Assembly: GCA_000165345.1 (NCBI GenBank)
Contig: CM000436.1
Coordinates: 160,001 to 224,000 of the forward strand
DNA length: 64,000 nt
Direction: 5' to 3'
Position 1 is the stretch's first letter. Each line of letters starts with the position of its first letter. Position numbers: made by a program. Positions 6,001 through 12,000 of this stretch are shown here, in pieces.

Positions 6001-9000
6001 AGCAATCTGATTAGTTCTGACTTACTATGATTTACAGAATCAAATAATTCTTGTAAATTTTTAGTATCACCGCTCAAAGAAATATATTCTAAGTATTTTC
6101 CATAAACCTCTTTATCATTTGTCAAGTCTTCAACAGCTGATCTTTTTTTTCTTTTGATTTTAGTTCCCGGCAAAATAGGTACTTTTGGTCTAACAGCAGG
6201 ATCTGGCATTCCGTTTTTTTTTGTTGATACGCCAAATGAAGATGGTATGTTTTTAATAGAAGCTGGTGTTTTTCTCTTCTTTTCCCTTGATTCTTGATGA
6301 TTCTTTGCAATGGCTTCTTCCAAAGCTTCCAAAAGAGCTTCCTTACTATCATTTCCAGTCATTTGTATGAAATCAGCCAAATTTAAAGGTGAATCAGAAG
6401 ATGAGACTGTCCCTACATATTCTAAATACTTTTCTGTAACTTTCTCATCAACTTGCATGTAGTCGTATCCGGAACCAACGCCCCAGCCTCCCTCAGCTCC
6501 TCCGACTGCACCTCCCTCAGCTCCTCCAGTTGCACCTCCCTCAGCTCCTCCGACTGCACCTCCCTCAGCTCCTCCGACTGCACCTCCCCCAGCTCCTCCG
6601 ACTGCACCTCCCTCAGCTCCTCCGACTACACCTCCCTCAGCTCCTCCAGTTGCACCTCCCCCAGCTCCTCCACTCGCTCCAGCTCCTCCACCTACTCCTG
6701 CTCCTCCACCTACTCCTGCTCCTCCACTTGCACCTCCCTCAGCTCCACCACCTGCTAAACTTTGGCTATATTCACCCAGCATACTTAATAAAGCAGCTTT
6801 GTCATAGCCTGAAGCCTTAATCAACTCTTCCAAACTTAAAGAATTTCCTTGTACAATAGACATGTATGCAGCATAAGCCATTAAAACTTCTTCATCACTT
6901 TTAAGCGTACTAAGTAAATCTATTCCAACTTCTGCTCCTTCACCACCTCCACCTCCACCTCCACTAGCTGTGCTAAATAAATTTTGGATAAGCTCACGCA
7001 TTAAATTTAATAAGTAATCCTTATCATAATTTGAAATTTTAATCAAATATTTCAAATCTAAAGGATTTTCTACAGAAGAAGAATATAAATTATAAGTTTC
7101 TATAATTGCTTTATCTGCTAAGAAAACTTCAGCTAAATCAAGAACTTGTTCAGCTTTATCTTCTCGTTTCTTTTGTTCAGAAGGATCAACTGTTGATTGA
7201 GTTTCATTTTTTAAGTTTTGGATAAATATTTTTAAATAATCAACTATGCCATATTTTTCTTCCTTAGCTAAACCCTTAATCTCTTCCAAACTTAAAGCCG
7301 GCTCATCCTTAGTTAAACTTAAATAAACTCCATATAAATTCATTACTTCTTCATCATCTTCATTTGTTCCTTCTCCTCCTCCTGTTACTGCTACACCTCC
7401 TTCTATTCCGCCTGCTGATACAGGCTCATCATGTTGATAATTTTTATCTAAACTATGCTTGAAAAATTGTTTCATTTTACTATTAAACTGATCAATTTCA
7501 TCTTTAGTCACTTCCATACTTGATATAAGATTTCCTAAAGCACCTAAAATACGATTGTACAAACTATAATTAACATATTTTAGTTTGATAAATTCCTTGC
7601 ATATATCAAATAATATTTTACTTCTACGAATTGCTGCTTTATGTACCAAAATTTCTTTCTTTAAAATTTTATCTTCTTTTAGCTTATTAATAGCTTTGTT
7701 CTTCAGTTTTTCTTTTAAGCTAATTAATTTATTCCATTGTTCTCTTAAAGTACTTTCTATTTGTGTTAGATTCAAATCATTACAAATAAATGGAAAATTT
7801 CCCAAATCAAGTAATGATGGATGTATTAACTTTTTAATTGACAATTCTTCTCCAGAAAGATCAGAAATATGTTCCCAAGACGATCTATATTTATTCTTTT
7901 CTTTACAATTTTTCAAAAGATCATTTAATCTTTCCAAAATATCTAAAAATATATTTGAAAGTAAATTTTTTTTTAATATGCTTTCTCTGTAACAATAACT
8001 TTTATTATTTGCTCTGCCAATAGAAGAATTTAATCTAACCAATAATTCCGAAATTGTTGAAATTCTTCGATGAATTAGTAATATCAACTCTGAATTACAT
8101 CCTTCTAAATATTTTACTGCATATTCCACTTCCTTTGGTAATAAAAGTGACTTTAATTCTAGAGCTAAAGATTGAATATTTCTGTTTAAATCGCATCTTA
8201 AAAGTGTTACTAAATTTAAATGATCTAAAATTACATTTTCTGGAGGAGCTTCAATTAATAAATTTATTGGATAATTTCCTTCATCACCATCTCCTCCGCC
8301 AGATCCACTTGGAACTGTTGGTTCGTTTGAAACTGTTGGTTTGTTTGGAATTGTTGGTTTGTTTGGAACTGTCGGTTTGTTTGGAACTGTCGGTTCGTTT
8401 GGAACTGTTGGTTCATTTGGAACTATTGGTTTGTTTGGAACTGTTGGTTTGTTTGGAAATGTCGGTTCGTTTGGAATTGTTGGTTTGCTTGGAAACGTTG
8501 GTAATACTGGTACACCTCCTGGTATTCCACTTGGTCTTCCTGATGATCCAGGCCAAGCTGGAATTGTTGGTTTCCCTGGGGCTCCTGCTCCTGCTCCTGC
8601 TCCTGCTTCTGGTCCTGGTCCTGGTCCTGCTCCTGCTTCTGGTCCTGGTCCTGGTCCTGCTCCTGCTTCTGGTCCTGGTCCTGGTCCTGCTTCTGGTCCT
8701 GGTCCTGGTCCTGCTTCTGGTCCCGGTCCTGCTCCTGCTCCTGGAGAAGATTCTTCAGAATCAAAGAATGAAGAATCATCCACTGAAGAAACATCAGTTA
8801 AAGGAGGAACAAACCCTCCAGAAAGAGTTGAGAAAGAGCAACTCTGTGTTGGAATAAATTTAGGACTCATAATATCAACTGGTACAAACAAACCATGACC
8901 ACTAGCACTTTTATAAGCACTTGGAGATTTCAATTCACTCGTAAGTTTATACAACTCAAGCAAAAGCTTCAAAAACTCAGCAGAAAATATATACTTTTGA

Positions 9001-12000
9001 GCTTTAAACATGCTATTACTACTCAAGAAACTTGTATGTTGCAAACCCGTATCAGCTGAACTACTTATATTATTCTTTTCTACATTCAACCCAGAAATAG
9101 TTCGTACTTCTAAAATCTTCTTTAACAACTTCTCGAGAAATTCAACCAACTTATTAATACTCGGAGTCAAAATAGAAAAGTCTTCATAAACGAATGAAGA
9201 AACTAATCCCATAGTTAATTGATATATAGACAAATCTTTCAATTCTGATCCTCTTGTAGTTGTACTTCCATCCAAAGATTGAATTGCTGTCTCCAATAAT
9301 CCTTCATATTCTAACTTTGCTTTACAATCATTTATAACTTTAAGAAGTTCTTCTAATAAACCAGGAATAAAACTTGACAAAACCGTATAATTATTTGCAT
9401 GTTTTTTATCAAGTTTTTTCCCATTTTCCAATATCACTTCTAATTGCAAATATCTATAATATAATAATGCCAATACCAAACTGTGACACTTTTGATTACC
9501 TTCCACCAACTTTGCGTCATTATTCACTAACTGAGTAAGTGTACTCTTATCAATTGATTTAACTTTTATATTAAACTTCATGGGTGGTTTAATCTCTTTT
9601 GTTTTTACCATATGCATTGTTAAAAGAGCTGTTAACAAACTTAATTGAAATTTTAATGAAAAAAATTGTAAATTATATTGCTCTCTCGATTCAGGACTTT
9701 GAATTTGTTTCAATTTGTTTAATATATATTCAAAAGTTTTTAAAAGTTGCAAAATTCTTTCTAGTAACATTAAAATCATATTAGTAGTAAGATTTTTTGC
9801 AAGATTTGTTTGATCTGATATTGAAAACCATCTAAATAATACTTTAAGTGAAGATAAATCATCTGTTTCGTAATAATCTCTTGGTAATCTTGATACAACT
9901 GGAAACAAATTTTCATCAAAATCAAGATTCAAATTTTCATTATTTACAGTAAATCTTAATTCAACACATTTTCTATATACAAATTGTAAAACTGGTTGAA
10001 TTTGGCTGTATATTGCCCTAAACCTAATAAATTTATCATTTTCCACAGTAACTCCTGTTGTAGTTGTTTGTGTTTGACCATTTAAATTTTCGAATAATTT
10101 CTTTAATGGTATTTTATTAAATTCCTTAAATTTTTCCAATTCTTTTTTAAGCATTTCAAAACTAACTGCTTGACATATTTGAGGTAAAGCCGTTGTTATA
10201 AAACTATTTCTCTTTTCATCATAAAAGCAAAGCATCTGCAAAACTTCAGTAAATAATATGGATTTATTCAATATAGCTAAAGTATTTTTAAGTATCATAA
10301 TTCTCTGATCTAAGAAATTATCAGTATTTTTTAAATAATCCAAAATTTTCTTTTCAGATTCTAATTGATTTAGAATTACTGTTCTTTTGTAAAAATGTGA
10401 CTTTAAAGTCTTTTGAATCTTTTCAATTTGGATTTGAAACGAATCATTCAAACATTTTTTAAAATCAAAATTAATTAAAGCTTCCAATACTTGTGAAATT
10501 GAAGTTAATAATTTATCTGTAAACAAAATAAGAGTTTTTGGCTGAAAATAACTAATTACCAAATTTTTAGGATCAAGTTCTCTTTATTTTTGAGTTTGAA
10601 TATATAGTTCGTGTTTATTCATAGGTAATCGACTTGCATCCTTTAATCTTTGAATTCGTCGTTTTTCTCTAGCATGAGCCTTTTGCTTACGTCTCATTTG
10701 CAAATTATCTAGATCTTGTTGTGATCTACCAGAATAAGGACTTGTAAATGGTCTATACATGACATCTTCATTAGCTACTTTTCCAGTAAGAATATCCTTT
10801 CTATATTTGCATTTATCAAGTTTAAGTTGATATTTAACAATCCTAGAAGCAAGTTCTTTCATTTGTAAGTACAACCTTTTAATGGCATTAGCTCTTTTAT
10901 CACATACTTCGCATCTATTTCCTTTTTGTTTTTTAATATTAGGATTATGGCACGTATGACTATCATAATTGCTTTTAAGAATTTTGGAATTATCTTTAAT
11001 TTTATTAAATTCAGCAGTCAATTTTTCGATTTTTGACTCCAATTGAGCTATTAAAATTCTTATTTCATTTAACGGAATATTGCTTAAAGTCCAATGTGTA
11101 ATTTCATTTTCTATTGTTAATTTAGAATTCTGGCTAAATCCTGGAAATTTTAAATAACATAACTCACTTATAATGATATTGGATTTATTATTAAGAAAGA
11201 TACCATTTTTCTTATAATTTGCCAAAAATACACTTAACAAAAAGATTACAAAATTTAACCACGTATTCATAATTAAAGATTTAATCTATGATTGCTATTA
11301 TTTTTTTCTTATCTTGTGTAAACTTAACTTGTATAATCCTTTATTTTACATACTAAATTATGTTCTGAAATATCCTATATTTAATTTAAAATAATGTAAC
11401 AAAAATTGACCAAGATCCGATTAAAATATCTTTCTTTGAATAGGAATAAACTGTTGTTGTTATTATTATTAAACCCCCGAGAAAAAAAAAAGATGAATAA
11501 ATGATTTTTTATTCCGAGCTACCCTCTTATAATATATATTGCTATATGTAAATATCTAACTAAAATTATTGAATTGATTTTTCATTTGGTGAAAAATTGA
11601 ATAACCCCAATTATAACAATAATTCTGTTACTTTAATTTAAAAAGTAGTACTGGTAACTAGAGATTAAAAAATAAACCATATATACCAGTAAAAAAAAGA
11701 AAACCCCATATAAATATAAAGCTTATTATATATATACGTAAAATTTTGATCGATATTATTCAATATTTATTTTTTAAAAAAAAAAAGAAATGAAGAAACT
11801 ATTTTGTTTTTGTACTTGTTATAATATTTAAAATATTCTCAAATAATAATCTTATATTATTTCTTCTCCCTTTAAATTTGACATGGAAAAAGGCTTTTTG
11901 TTTTTTCCTTTACTATTATTTTGAGATTCATAATTTTAGGATTACGCAATCAAACTTAGGCGGCACATTTCAAGATATAATATATTACATGTAATTTAAT

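What the first reader, a model, noticed from the sequence alone, without database searches (positions are those of the whole stretch)
6455..9400. Modular architecture: reiterated ~45-aa 'YxLYxS...L.LI..SGYDK..LL' modules separated by Gly/Ala/Pro microsatellite linkers
Within A the motif recurs at least four times: EEVMNLYGVYLSLTKDEPALSLEEIKGL, KAIIETYNLYSSSVENPLDLKYLIKISNYDKDYLLNLMRELIQ, EEVLMAYAAYMSIVQGNSLSLEELIKASGYDKAALLSMLGEY, and VTEKYLEYVGTVSSSDSPLNLADFIQMTGNDSKEALLEALEE. B carries three to four equivalent copies (VLETYALYSSVVENPSNLEDLIELSSYDKSYLLSLMIEF, VLEAYALYVSMVKQSLSLKELIEVAGYDKNTLLDILSEY). D ends with one ([37 protein letters not shown]). Every linker between modules is a different simple repeat (GAEGGAVGG, GGSGG, PGPGPEAG, KPTVPN). 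This looks like a small folded domain strung on flexible spacers whose lengths are free to expand and contract.
Basis: seen in the sequence. Interest (0 to 1): 0.65.

Follow-up and report, generated by a model that had tools for sequence, protein, structure and literature searches.

The report
Three-helix module repeats, Cryptosporidium antigens
A previously undescribed ~47-residue domain, predicted to fold as a three-helix bundle, is strung up to five times on length-variable Gly/Pro-rich spacers in a family of giant secreted Cryptosporidium proteins that had only been labelled 'low complexity' or 'mucin'; its function is still unknown.

Summary
The window is Cryptosporidium parvum Iowa II chromosome 8. 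The finding lies in cgd8_660_670 (A). Its paralogues are cgd8_680_690 (B) and cgd8_700 (D, a putative mucin whose antibodies were associated with protection).

The repeated module is real. There are exactly 10 copies in the window: A has 5, B has 4 and D has 1. They score 57-67 bits against 11 for the best background ORF. HMMs built from one positional class detect the other classes above 9,000 shuffled decoys.

The locus sits between the myosin and L23a genes in every species examined. Module number varies from 2 to 5.

Repeat-bearing spacers change length between isolates; the m3-m4 Gly-rich linker runs from 62 to 111 aa. Non-repetitive linkers keep their length.

This is a new domain within a familiar architecture.

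The parts
5295..10562 (-). Gene A, main ORF (cgd8_660 part of cgd8_660_670): 1755-aa ORF holding the central helical domain, five modules, spacers and the Cys-rich C-terminal domain
10584..11270 (-). Gene A, N-terminal ORF (cgd8_670; signal peptide and CxxC coiled-coil region). It is in the same frame as 5295-10562 and separated from it only by the stop codon at 10584-10586 (GAA to TAA, seen only in the IOWA assemblies)
7212..7358 (-). Module A1 (class T1)
   Evidence: 60 bits
6978..7118 (-). Module A2 (class YDK)
   Evidence: 63 bits
6756..6899 (-). Module A3 (class YDK); the copy that was structure-predicted
   Evidence: 66 bits
6486..6755 (-). Gly-rich m3-m4 spacer, (GGAEGGAV)n; a 24/48-nt minisatellite that varies in length between isolates (62-111 aa)
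6300..6452 (-). Module A4 (class GN)
   Evidence: 61 bits
5979..6119 (-). Module A5 (class T5)
   Evidence: 57 bits
5697..5903 (-). Pro/Gln/Tyr-rich 17-aa (51-nt) repeats between module 5 and the C-terminal domain; copy number differs between C. hominis isolates
5298..5678 (-). Cys-rich C-terminal domain (includes CNNCF[IV]C), shared by A, B and orthologues and absent from D
7437..8273 (-). Central all-alpha domain (279 aa) shared by A, B and D; AF2 pLDDT 85
8325..8486 (-). (K/E)PT(V/I)PN hexapeptide repeats (18-nt unit). They lie upstream of the central domain, not between modules
8574..8744 (-). PGPGPEAG-type Pro/Gly repeats (6/30-nt unit), also upstream of the central domain; length varies between isolates
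8751..8825 (-). Conserved acidic motif LSGGFVPPLTDVSSVDDSSFFDSEE just before the PG tract; conserved in the most distant family members
13256..16714 (-). Gene B, C-terminal part (cgd8_680). It runs into the N gap; in long-read assemblies B is a single ORF of about 3,228 aa
13982..14860 (-). Modules B1-B4 (14708-14860, 14522-14668, 14288-14434, 13982-14140) with a Gly/Ala m3-m4 spacer at 14180-14275
28303..30249 (-). Gene B, N-terminal part (cgd8_690; signal peptide)
31361..37099 (-). Gene D (cgd8_700, 'CpMuc8/Muc20'): signal peptide, Thr-rich tract, middle region shared with B, central domain and one terminal module
31364..31507 (-). Module D1, the last 48 residues of D
   Evidence: 61 bits

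Best explanation
Shown here. The ~47-aa unit is a real, anciently duplicated domain. It is acidic and is predicted to fold on its own as a three-helix bundle. It occurs 1-5 times near the C-terminus of a Cryptosporidium-restricted family of giant proteins (cgd8_660_670, cgd8_680_690, cgd8_700 and their orthologues). These proteins have a signal peptide and no transmembrane segment, and they are encoded at one syntenic locus between the myosin and L23a genes. The modules alternate with spacers. Some spacers are coding minisatellites (24-, 51-, 18- and 6/30-nt units) whose copy number differs between isolates. The modules and the non-repetitive linkers keep their length.

Inferred. The array works as beads on a string in a secreted, extracellular protein at the parasite surface or host interface. 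Several weakly binding helical bundles are held on flexible Gly-rich or extended Pro-rich tethers, so a partner (host or parasite matrix) is engaged by avidity and reach rather than by one strong site. Replication slippage or unequal recombination in the spacers, together with fast amino-acid change on module surfaces, varies the size and antigenicity of the protein while the bundle core (V6, Y10, Y13, L24, L27/I28, L38, L42) is kept. The binding partner and the life-cycle stage are not known.
For: - Repeat reality: 10 copies at 57-67 bits against 11 bits for background. Cross-class HMMs beat 9,000 shuffled decoys.
- Fold: AF2 pLDDT 89 and pTM 0.70, with three helices. Conserved columns have the heptad spacing of a bundle core, plus polar D3, S15 and K35, which I read as helix caps.
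- Acidity: pI 4.1-4.8.
- Secretion: hydrophobic N-terminal signal-like sequences and no later TM-like run.
- Restricted distribution: a profile search of 1.84e9 representatives gave 8 hits. Five are family members; three are partial-profile matches in unrelated repeat proteins.
- Synteny: the same position between myosin and L23a in C. hominis, C. meleagridis, C. ubiquitum (L23a flank only; its contig ends inside the gene), chipmunk genotype I and two more distant assemblies.
- Module counts of 2, 4, 4, 4, 5 and 5 across species, with position-specific classes.
- Spacer polymorphism: the m3-m4 linker is 62-111 aa and the PQ tail 194-228 aa, while the m1-m2 linker (32 aa) and m4-m5 linker (61 aa) are fixed. 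The DNA units are listed.
- A different K/E-rich repeat fills the equivalent spacer in P0052.
- Fast evolution: dN/dS is 0.46 for modules and 0.29 for the central domain against 0.14 for the neighbouring myosin (C. parvum vs C. meleagridis). It is about 0.7-1 or more across gene A against 0.22 for myosin (C. parvum vs C. hominis).
- Immune exposure of the family: antibodies to cgd8_700 were associated with protection from reinfection (PMC10425216).
Against: - No localisation, expression or binding data were found for any family member.
- No conserved surface patch stands out. Of the 16 conserved columns, 15 are hydrophobic or are the polar D3, S15 and K35, read here as helix caps; P21 in the loop is the other. 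This fits a purely structural role equally well.
- The fold is a prediction from a 10-sequence alignment of paralogous copies. Inter-module contacts were not modelled.
- The dN/dS above 1 for modules between C. parvum and C. hominis rests on about 24 non-synonymous and 2.4 synonymous changes (my rough binomial estimate from the site counts gives p about 0.04; not run as a tool), so it is not robust.
- Gene A carries a nonsense codon in the IOWA line, so at least this paralogue is dispensable there.
- Length differences between assemblies could partly be assembly error in repeats. However, they come in whole repeat units and occur in independent long-read assemblies.
Confidence: 0.55

Rival explanations
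1. Structural wall or matrix protein. The family is a building block of a resistant extracellular structure, such as the oocyst wall, wall-forming-body contents or another matrix. The modules are rigid beads. The two invariant tyrosines (YxxY) and the Tyr-bearing Pro/Gln repeats, together with the Cys-rich ends, serve for covalent cross-linking (dityrosine or disulfide) rather than ligand binding.
For: - Y10 and Y13 are invariant in all 30 modules.
- The PQ repeats carry two Tyr per 17 aa.
- The proteins hold 24-45 Cys and conserved Cys-rich N- and C-terminal regions.
- No conserved polar surface patch suggests a binding site.
- From general knowledge: coccidian oocyst walls use Tyr-rich and Cys-rich proteins.
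Against: - Y10 and Y13 sit on the heptad face with V6 and are most simply read as core residues.
- Rapid evolution, gene gain and loss between close species, and association of anti-cgd8_700 antibodies with protection are more typical of interface antigens than of wall scaffolds. They do not exclude a wall role.
- No stage-specific expression data were found.
Confidence: 0.2
2. Host-factor-binding array, analogous to bacterial three-helix-bundle binders (staphylococcal protein A Ig-binding domains, GA albumin-binding modules). Each module would bind a host protein such as immunoglobulin, mucin or a brush-border component. Tandem copies would give avidity, and the repeat region would act as a stalk.
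For: - The best Foldseek PDB matches are protein A domains and affibodies.
- The architecture is similar: five small bundles followed by a polymorphic 8-residue repeat region.
- The proteins are secreted, fast evolving and immunogenic.
Against: - There is no sequence similarity.
- No conserved surface residues were found.
- Any three-helix bundle of this size resembles protein A.
Confidence: 0.1
3. Intracellular helix-turn-helix-like or UBA-like module that binds nucleic acid or ubiquitin. The pattern 'sLsL.ELi...G.dk..Ll' resembles an HTH, and the size (~45 aa, three helices) resembles UBA/CUE domains.
For: The size and three-helix layout. One weak PDB profile hit to an HTH-domain protein at E = 1.3.
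Against: - The modules are strongly acidic (net charge -2 to -7, pI 4.1-4.8).
- The proteins start with signal peptides.
- Pfam gives no HTH or UBA hit even at E = 10.
Confidence: 0.03
4. Not a domain at all: the apparent repeats are generic amphipathic-helix or coiled-coil composition bias in low-complexity proteins.
For: The host proteins are rich in low-complexity and helical sequence.
Against: - Cross-class HMM scores of 26-50 bits compare with at most 15 bits for 9,000 composition-matched decoys.
- Invariant residues sit at fixed positions in 30 copies from 6 species.
- Loops containing Pro or Gly break the helices.
- Nothing else in the window exceeds 11 bits.
Confidence: 0.02

Closest known systems
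Staphylococcal protein A Ig-binding domains (E, D, A, B, C) followed by the Xr octapeptide repeat region
   Same: A small three-helix bundle repeated about five times in a secreted protein, followed by a length-polymorphic short-unit repeat region. Protein A domains are the top, though non-significant, Foldseek matches.
   Different: There is no sequence similarity. The structural match is at noise level (E >= 1.5). The module is 47 aa rather than 58 aa. The spacers lie between modules rather than only after them. No Ig binding has been shown. The host organism is a eukaryotic parasite.
Cryptosporidium mucin-like and polymorphic secreted glycoproteins (gp60, gp900, Muc family). cgd8_700 is itself listed as CpMuc8/Muc20 and cgd8_660 as a 'predicted mucin'
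   Same: Secreted, repeat-bearing, fast-evolving, length-polymorphic and immunogenic. The copy number of the genes differs between species.
   Different: A and B have no Ser/Thr-rich tract: at most 28% S+T in any 80-aa window, against 55% in D. Most of each protein is predicted folded helical domains, and the repeats are Gly/Ala/Pro/Gln-rich. The label 'mucin' or 'low complexity' misses the domain content.
Plasmodium merozoite surface and repeat antigens (for example MSP1 helical domains, PvRBP2b)
UBA/CUE and helix-turn-helix three-helix domains
   Same: About 45 residues and three helices.
   Different: No profile match. The module is acidic and secreted, and the signature loops or recognition helix are not evident.

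Membership tests
Any Pfam-A family (module or whole proteins) | Score at or above the family's gathering threshold | tested here: not met
   Whole A and B: 0 families at E <= 0.1. The ten modules scanned singly gave only scattered chance hits (best E = 0.004 to RNase_E_G, 2 of 10 members).
Staphylococcal protein A B-domain / three-helix Ig-binding module | Sequence-profile similarity to solved protein A domains | tested here: not met
   The PDB profile search lists no protein A chain at E <= 10.
Staphylococcal protein A B-domain / three-helix Ig-binding module | Significant structural superposition | tested here: inconclusive
Staphylococcal protein A B-domain / three-helix Ig-binding module | Binds the Fc/Fab of immunoglobulin | not testable with these tools
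   Needs binding assays.
Mucin-type glycoprotein (the label used for cgd8_660 and cgd8_700 in the literature) | Long Ser/Thr(/Pro)-rich tract able to carry dense O-glycans | tested here: not met
   For A and B the maximum S+T is 26-28% in any 80-aa window. The feature is met only by D (55% at aa 189-268).
Coiled coil | Uninterrupted heptad helix of 28 residues or more | tested here: not met
   The module is predicted as three helices of 13, 7 and 13 residues separated by loops with Pro or Gly.
Helix-turn-helix DNA-binding domain | Basic recognition surface, intracellular protein, HTH profile match | tested here: not met
   Net charge -2 to -7. Signal peptide present. No Pfam HTH hit.
cgd8_660_670 / cgd8_680_690 / cgd8_700 paralogue family of Cryptosporidium (as defined in PMC4407392 and PMC6532270) | Sequence identity to the annotated genes and position on chromosome 8 between the L23a and myosin genes | tested here: met
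   Exact matches of flanking and partial gene products to C. parvum Iowa II entries. Synteny in 8 further species or isolates.

The most novel reading that the evidence does not exclude
The module would be a new, genus-specific extracellular binding domain. Tandem, tethered copies would capture a host molecule (immunoglobulin, mucus or brush-border glycoprotein) by avidity, making these 'low-complexity' genes a protein-A-like adhesion or immune-evasion system. Module number (2-5) and spacer length would then tune host range, and the C. parvum-specific third gene copy would contribute to its broad host range.
Probability: 0.12. Interest if true: 0.7.

Novelty: new variant of a known kind. Interest (0 to 1): 0.4.

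Why it matters
These genes are among the few that differ in copy number between C. parvum and C. hominis. One of them is used as a species-specific PCR target. Antibodies to cgd8_700 were associated with protection of children from reinfection. Yet the genes are annotated only as 'large low complexity protein' or 'mucin'.

Three results make them easier to work with:
- They contain a defined, small, foldable domain and a confidently predicted 279-aa helical domain. This gives concrete constructs for structure work, binding screens and antigen design, because folded conserved epitopes can be separated from hypervariable spacers.
- The minisatellite spacers are candidate typing markers.
- The natural nonsense allele in the IOWA line is a ready-made comparison for function.

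The general architecture of folded beads on slippage-prone linkers in a parasite antigen is familiar, so the result fills in detail rather than overturning anything.

Tried and rejected
1. The search for homologous proteins was run three times: with full A, with the central domain plus modules, and with the 127-aa C-terminal domain of B. It returned nothing each time. The exact A, B and D products are not in that collection, so it cannot see this family. Orthologues were reached instead through exact look-ups of the flanking L23a and myosin proteins.

2. The afdb50 Foldseek library was not available, so no search against predicted structures was made.

3. Pfam and PDB sequence searches of the module found nothing significant. 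A DJ-1/PfpI amidase segment at E = 0.005 covers only 30 profile positions inside a different fold and was dismissed as chance.

5. The literature hunt for stage or localisation data found nothing. The main-text search gave 8 papers, none with expression or localisation data. The hyperLOPIT paper is not held. The supplements of PMC10425216 gave only array scores, and two other supplement look-ups found nothing (PMC7840661 had no occurrences; no supplementary files are held for the bioRxiv preprint). A search on 'Muc20' was swamped by human MUC20.

7. The plus-strand ORFs over the repeats (for example 6453-6758 and 8054-8857) were considered and rejected as antisense translations of the minisatellites.

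
Full report
**Identity of the locus.** Eight ORF products of the window are exact matches to Cryptosporidium parvum Iowa II proteins: a myosin heavy chain, a prefoldin-like chaperone, a CCCH protein, an RNA helicase and others. The window is therefore C. parvum chromosome 8. It has about 25-33% G+C and a 10,000-N gap at 17984-27983.

The finding lies in a minus-strand ORF of 1755 aa (5295-10562). 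With the in-frame ORF 10584-11270 just upstream, this is the gene the literature calls cgd8_660_670 (gene A here). Two paralogues follow on the same strand:
- cgd8_680_690 (gene B): 13256-16714, then the gap, then 28303-30249.
- cgd8_700 (gene D): 31361-37099.

Published work describes these genes only in general terms:
- as a 'large low complexity protein' or a predicted mucin ('CpMuc8/Muc20');
- B is absent from C. hominis and has been used as a C. parvum-specific PCR target;
- antibodies to cgd8_700 were associated with protection from reinfection (PMC4407392, PMC4637869, PMC6532270, PMC7371110, PMC10425216, PMC12407990).

I found no description of an internal domain in any of them.

An HMM built from the ten copies, run on all six reading frames of the window, scores exactly these ten at 57-67 bits. 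The best other ORF scores 11 bits.

A and B are paralogues, so similarity between A1 and B1 is trivial. The relevant test is between positional classes. With 30 copies from six species sorted into five classes, an HMM built from the 'YDK' class alone scores all GN copies (26-32 bits), all D copies (42-51) and all T5 copies (27-28), plus 4 of 6 T1 copies, above the best of 9,000 shuffled decoys (15.4 bits). The reciprocal tests link the classes in the same way. Composition or coiled-coil bias is therefore excluded.

- The module coordinates are 7212-7358, 6978-7118, 6756-6899, 6300-6452 and 5979-6119. Modules 4 and 5 fall outside the stated span 6455-9400.
- Only the m3-m4 spacer (6486-6755, GGAEGGAV-type, about 90 aa of Gly-rich repeat within a 103-aa linker) is a long simple repeat.
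- The m2-m3 spacer holds a short Gly run.
- The m1-m2 spacer (32 aa) and the m4-m5 spacer (61 aa, basic) are non-repetitive.
- The PGPGPEAG tract (8574-8744) and the KPTVPN tract (8325-8486) lie upstream of a 279-aa helical domain, far from the modules.

**Fold.** AlphaFold2 on module A3 with the 10-copy alignment gives mean pLDDT 89.1 and pTM 0.70. It predicts helices at residues 4-16, 24-30 and 35-47.

The columns conserved over 30 copies are as follows:
- V6, Y10 and Y13 in helix 1 (heptad spacing);
- L24, L27 and I28 in helix 2;
- L38, L41/42 and a hydrophobic residue at 45 in helix 3;
- D3, S15 and K35, which sit at helix ends and which I read as helix caps;
- P21 and L22 in the loop before helix 2.

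This is the pattern of a three-helix-bundle core. All ten window copies are acidic, with pI 4.1-4.8.

Comparison with known structures gives no specific relative:
- The best Foldseek hits are staphylococcal protein A domains and affibodies, but at E >= 1.5 and TM about 0.5.
- Pfam and PDB sequence profiles give nothing significant.

The fold class is clear. Membership of any known family is not supported.

**Distribution.** A profile search of 1.84 billion representative proteins gave eight hits at E <= 0.001. Five are family members:
- P0051, 954 aa, 55% identical to the C. ubiquitum protein;
- P0052, 2810 aa;
- P0053 and P0054, which appear to be C. tyzzeri and C. meleagridis gene products (inferred from length and sequence, not named by a tool);
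- P0056, 2957 aa.

The other three match only part of the profile repeatedly inside unrelated repeat proteins.

One caveat applies. The exact A, B and D products are not in the related collection, so low-complexity proteins may be under-represented.

Orthologous loci were fetched through the flanking L23a and myosin proteins. The module array is present in these species:

| Species | Modules |
|---|---|
| C. hominis | 5 |
| C. meleagridis | 4 |
| chipmunk genotype I | 5 |
| C. ubiquitum | 4 |
| each D orthologue | 1 |

P0052 (assembly GCA_027243975.1) has four modules and P0056 (GCA_014529505.1) has two. In both assemblies the protein is the only gene between the myosin and L23a genes.

My inferred history is therefore:
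- one B-like gene in the ancestor;
- a derived paralogue D in the C. parvum, C. hominis and C. meleagridis group;
- a further copy A in C. parvum, which is B lacking about 1,300 internal residues.

C. hominis retains only an A-like copy plus D.

Module classes are position-specific across species. The order is T1, YDK, GN and a T5-like unit, with a YDK duplication in the C. parvum group and loss of T5 in B. The duplications are therefore old, and module number has changed more than once.

**Spacers.** Tandem Repeats Finder shows coding minisatellites with these units:
- 51 nt (PQ-rich);
- 24 and 48 nt (Gly-rich);
- 18 nt (KPTVPN);
- 6 and 30 nt (PG-rich).

Spacer lengths in nine assemblies are as follows:

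| Segment | C. parvum | C. hominis |
|---|---|---|
| m3-m4 linker (aa) | 97, 103, 103, 103, 111 | 62, 94, 102, 110 |
| segment after m5, including PQ tail (aa) | 228 in all five | 194, 211, 211, 228 |
| m1-m2 linker (aa) | 32 | 32 |
| m4-m5 linker (aa) | 61 | 61 |

All the length differences are whole repeat units. Module sequences are the same within C. parvum. The PG and KP(T/A)VP(N/S) tracts also differ between isolates.

B and D vary in the same way:
- B is annotated at 3196 and 3242 aa in two isolates and reconstructs to 3228 aa in a third.
- D is 1755, 1811 or 1823 aa in C. hominis.

In P0052 the spacer between m2 and the GN-class module (the position of the m3-m4 linker in A and B) is a K/E-rich repeat unrelated to the Gly-rich one. 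What is conserved is that there is a spacer, not what the spacer is made of.

**Evolutionary rate.** Nei-Gojobori estimates give the following.

| Comparison | Region | dN/dS |
|---|---|---|
| C. parvum B vs C. meleagridis | modules | 0.46 |
| C. parvum B vs C. meleagridis | central domain | 0.29 |
| C. parvum B vs C. meleagridis | middle region | 0.30 |
| C. parvum vs C. meleagridis | neighbouring myosin | 0.14 |
| C. parvum A vs C. hominis | whole gene | about 0.7-1 or more |
| C. parvum vs C. hominis | neighbouring myosin | 0.22 |

In the C. parvum-C. hominis comparison the modules show about 24 non-synonymous and 2.4 synonymous changes. That is suggestive of diversifying selection, but the counts are too few to be firm.

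**Rest of the protein.** All three genes begin with a hydrophobic signal-like sequence and have no later TM-like run.

A and B end in a conserved Cys-rich domain (CNNCF[IV]C...NMEKV...C) that D lacks.

A and B have no Ser/Thr-rich tract, so 'mucin' does not describe them. D has one such tract.

**Mechanism.**
- Shown: a real repeated domain that is predicted to fold independently, in secreted giant proteins, on spacers of which the repetitive ones change length by whole units.
- Inferred: the proteins act outside the parasite as flexible multivalent arrays. Their size and surface vary under host pressure while the bundle core is kept.

I give this reading 0.55 confidence. The main rival, at 0.2, is a cross-linked structural wall or matrix protein. 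It draws on the invariant YxxY pair, the Tyr-bearing PQ repeats and the many Cys.

A protein-A-like host-factor binder (0.1) is a more specific and more interesting version of the main model, with only noise-level structural support. HTH/UBA-like and artefact readings are contradicted by charge, signal peptides, profile searches and the decoy test.

**Novelty and limits.** The genes, their paralogy, their polymorphism and their species distribution are already published. The ~47-aa module, its predicted fold, its genus-wide conservation at one syntenic locus, its changing copy number and the folded central domain were not found in Pfam or in the searchable literature.

The architecture of small helical beads on slippage-prone linkers in a pathogen's secreted antigen is a known kind. 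I therefore rate this as a new variant of moderate interest.

The main gaps are the absence of any expression, localisation or binding data, reliance on predicted structure, and no search against predicted-structure databases.

Noticed in passing
window 10584-10586 (minus strand): Gene A is split into 'cgd8_670' and 'cgd8_660' by a single in-frame nonsense codon, GAA(Glu229) to TAA. It is present in the window and in two IOWA long-read assemblies (L014, L015). It is absent from two other C. parvum assemblies (L013, with an intact 1999-aa ORF, and L007) and from C. hominis. This looks like a lineage-specific truncation of this paralogue in the laboratory IOWA line.
   Followed up: yes
window 17984-27983; L002 519-3351: The 10,000-N gap is a placeholder. 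In the long-read assembly L002 the two flanks are about 2.8 kb apart, and cgd8_690 and cgd8_680 form one continuous ORF (reconstructed B = 3,228 aa). The window's sequence next to the gap is only 93-97% identical to L002. The stop that ends the 28303-30249 ORF is not present in L002, which suggests low-quality sequence at the old contig ends.
   Followed up: yes
L001 about 2400 (GCA_035232765.1): In this assembly B is broken into two overlapping ORFs (9-2405 and 2402-8017) by a frameshift that L002 lacks. It is probably an assembly or polishing error, and it explains the differing annotated lengths (1002 vs 1146 aa).
   Followed up: partly
L007 (C. parvum GCA_048859185.1), codon 590 of gene A: There is another in-frame stop in gene A at a different position from the IOWA one. 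The annotation (1965 aa) appears to skip it. It could be real or a sequencing error.
   Followed up: no
window 8751-8825 (A); also P0052 and P0056: The acidic motif LSGGF(V/L)PPLTDVS(S/T)(V/I/M)DDSS(F/Y/L)F(D/E)(S/E)(E/S)E, just before the Pro/Gly tract, is almost unchanged even in the most divergent family members. It is far better conserved than its surroundings and is a candidate processing, sorting or modification site.
   Followed up: partly
window 16415-16483 (B) and 33146-33217 (D): A second conserved short motif, L(Y/F)GFD...(D/S)(F/Y)..(I/L)FD..(S/T)G, sits just before the second low-complexity block of B and D and recurs in P0051, P0052 and P0056.
   Followed up: no
window 36257-36505 and 32723-32908 (gene D): cgd8_700 carries a Thr-rich, mucin-like tract (55% S+T) followed by a (PN)n run. 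Separately it has a run of 31 Thr-Gly dipeptides. Only this paralogue fits the 'mucin' label.
   Followed up: partly
L021 (GCA_014529505.1) and L022 (GCA_027243975.1): In two more distant Cryptosporidium assemblies a single B-like gene (2957 and 2810 aa) lies between the myosin and L23a genes. C. hominis and C. meleagridis have two family genes there, and C. parvum has three. The locus has grown by tandem duplication, and A is B with an internal deletion of about 1,300 aa.
   Followed up: yes
window 6453-6758, 6530-6820, 8054-8857, 8341-8898 (+ strand) and 6422-6607, 8423-8794 (- strand, other frames): Long ORFs overlapping the minisatellites in other frames and on the other strand translate to low-complexity strings such as (LV)n and (SSSDCT)n. 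They are by-products of the repeats, not genes.
   Followed up: partly
window 3552-4399 (+ strand): The ribosomal protein L23a gene has a 383-nt intron after codon 5 (GT at 3568, AG ending at 3950). The spliced 154-aa product is identical in C. parvum and C. hominis, which made it a useful anchor for fetching orthologous loci.
   Followed up: yes
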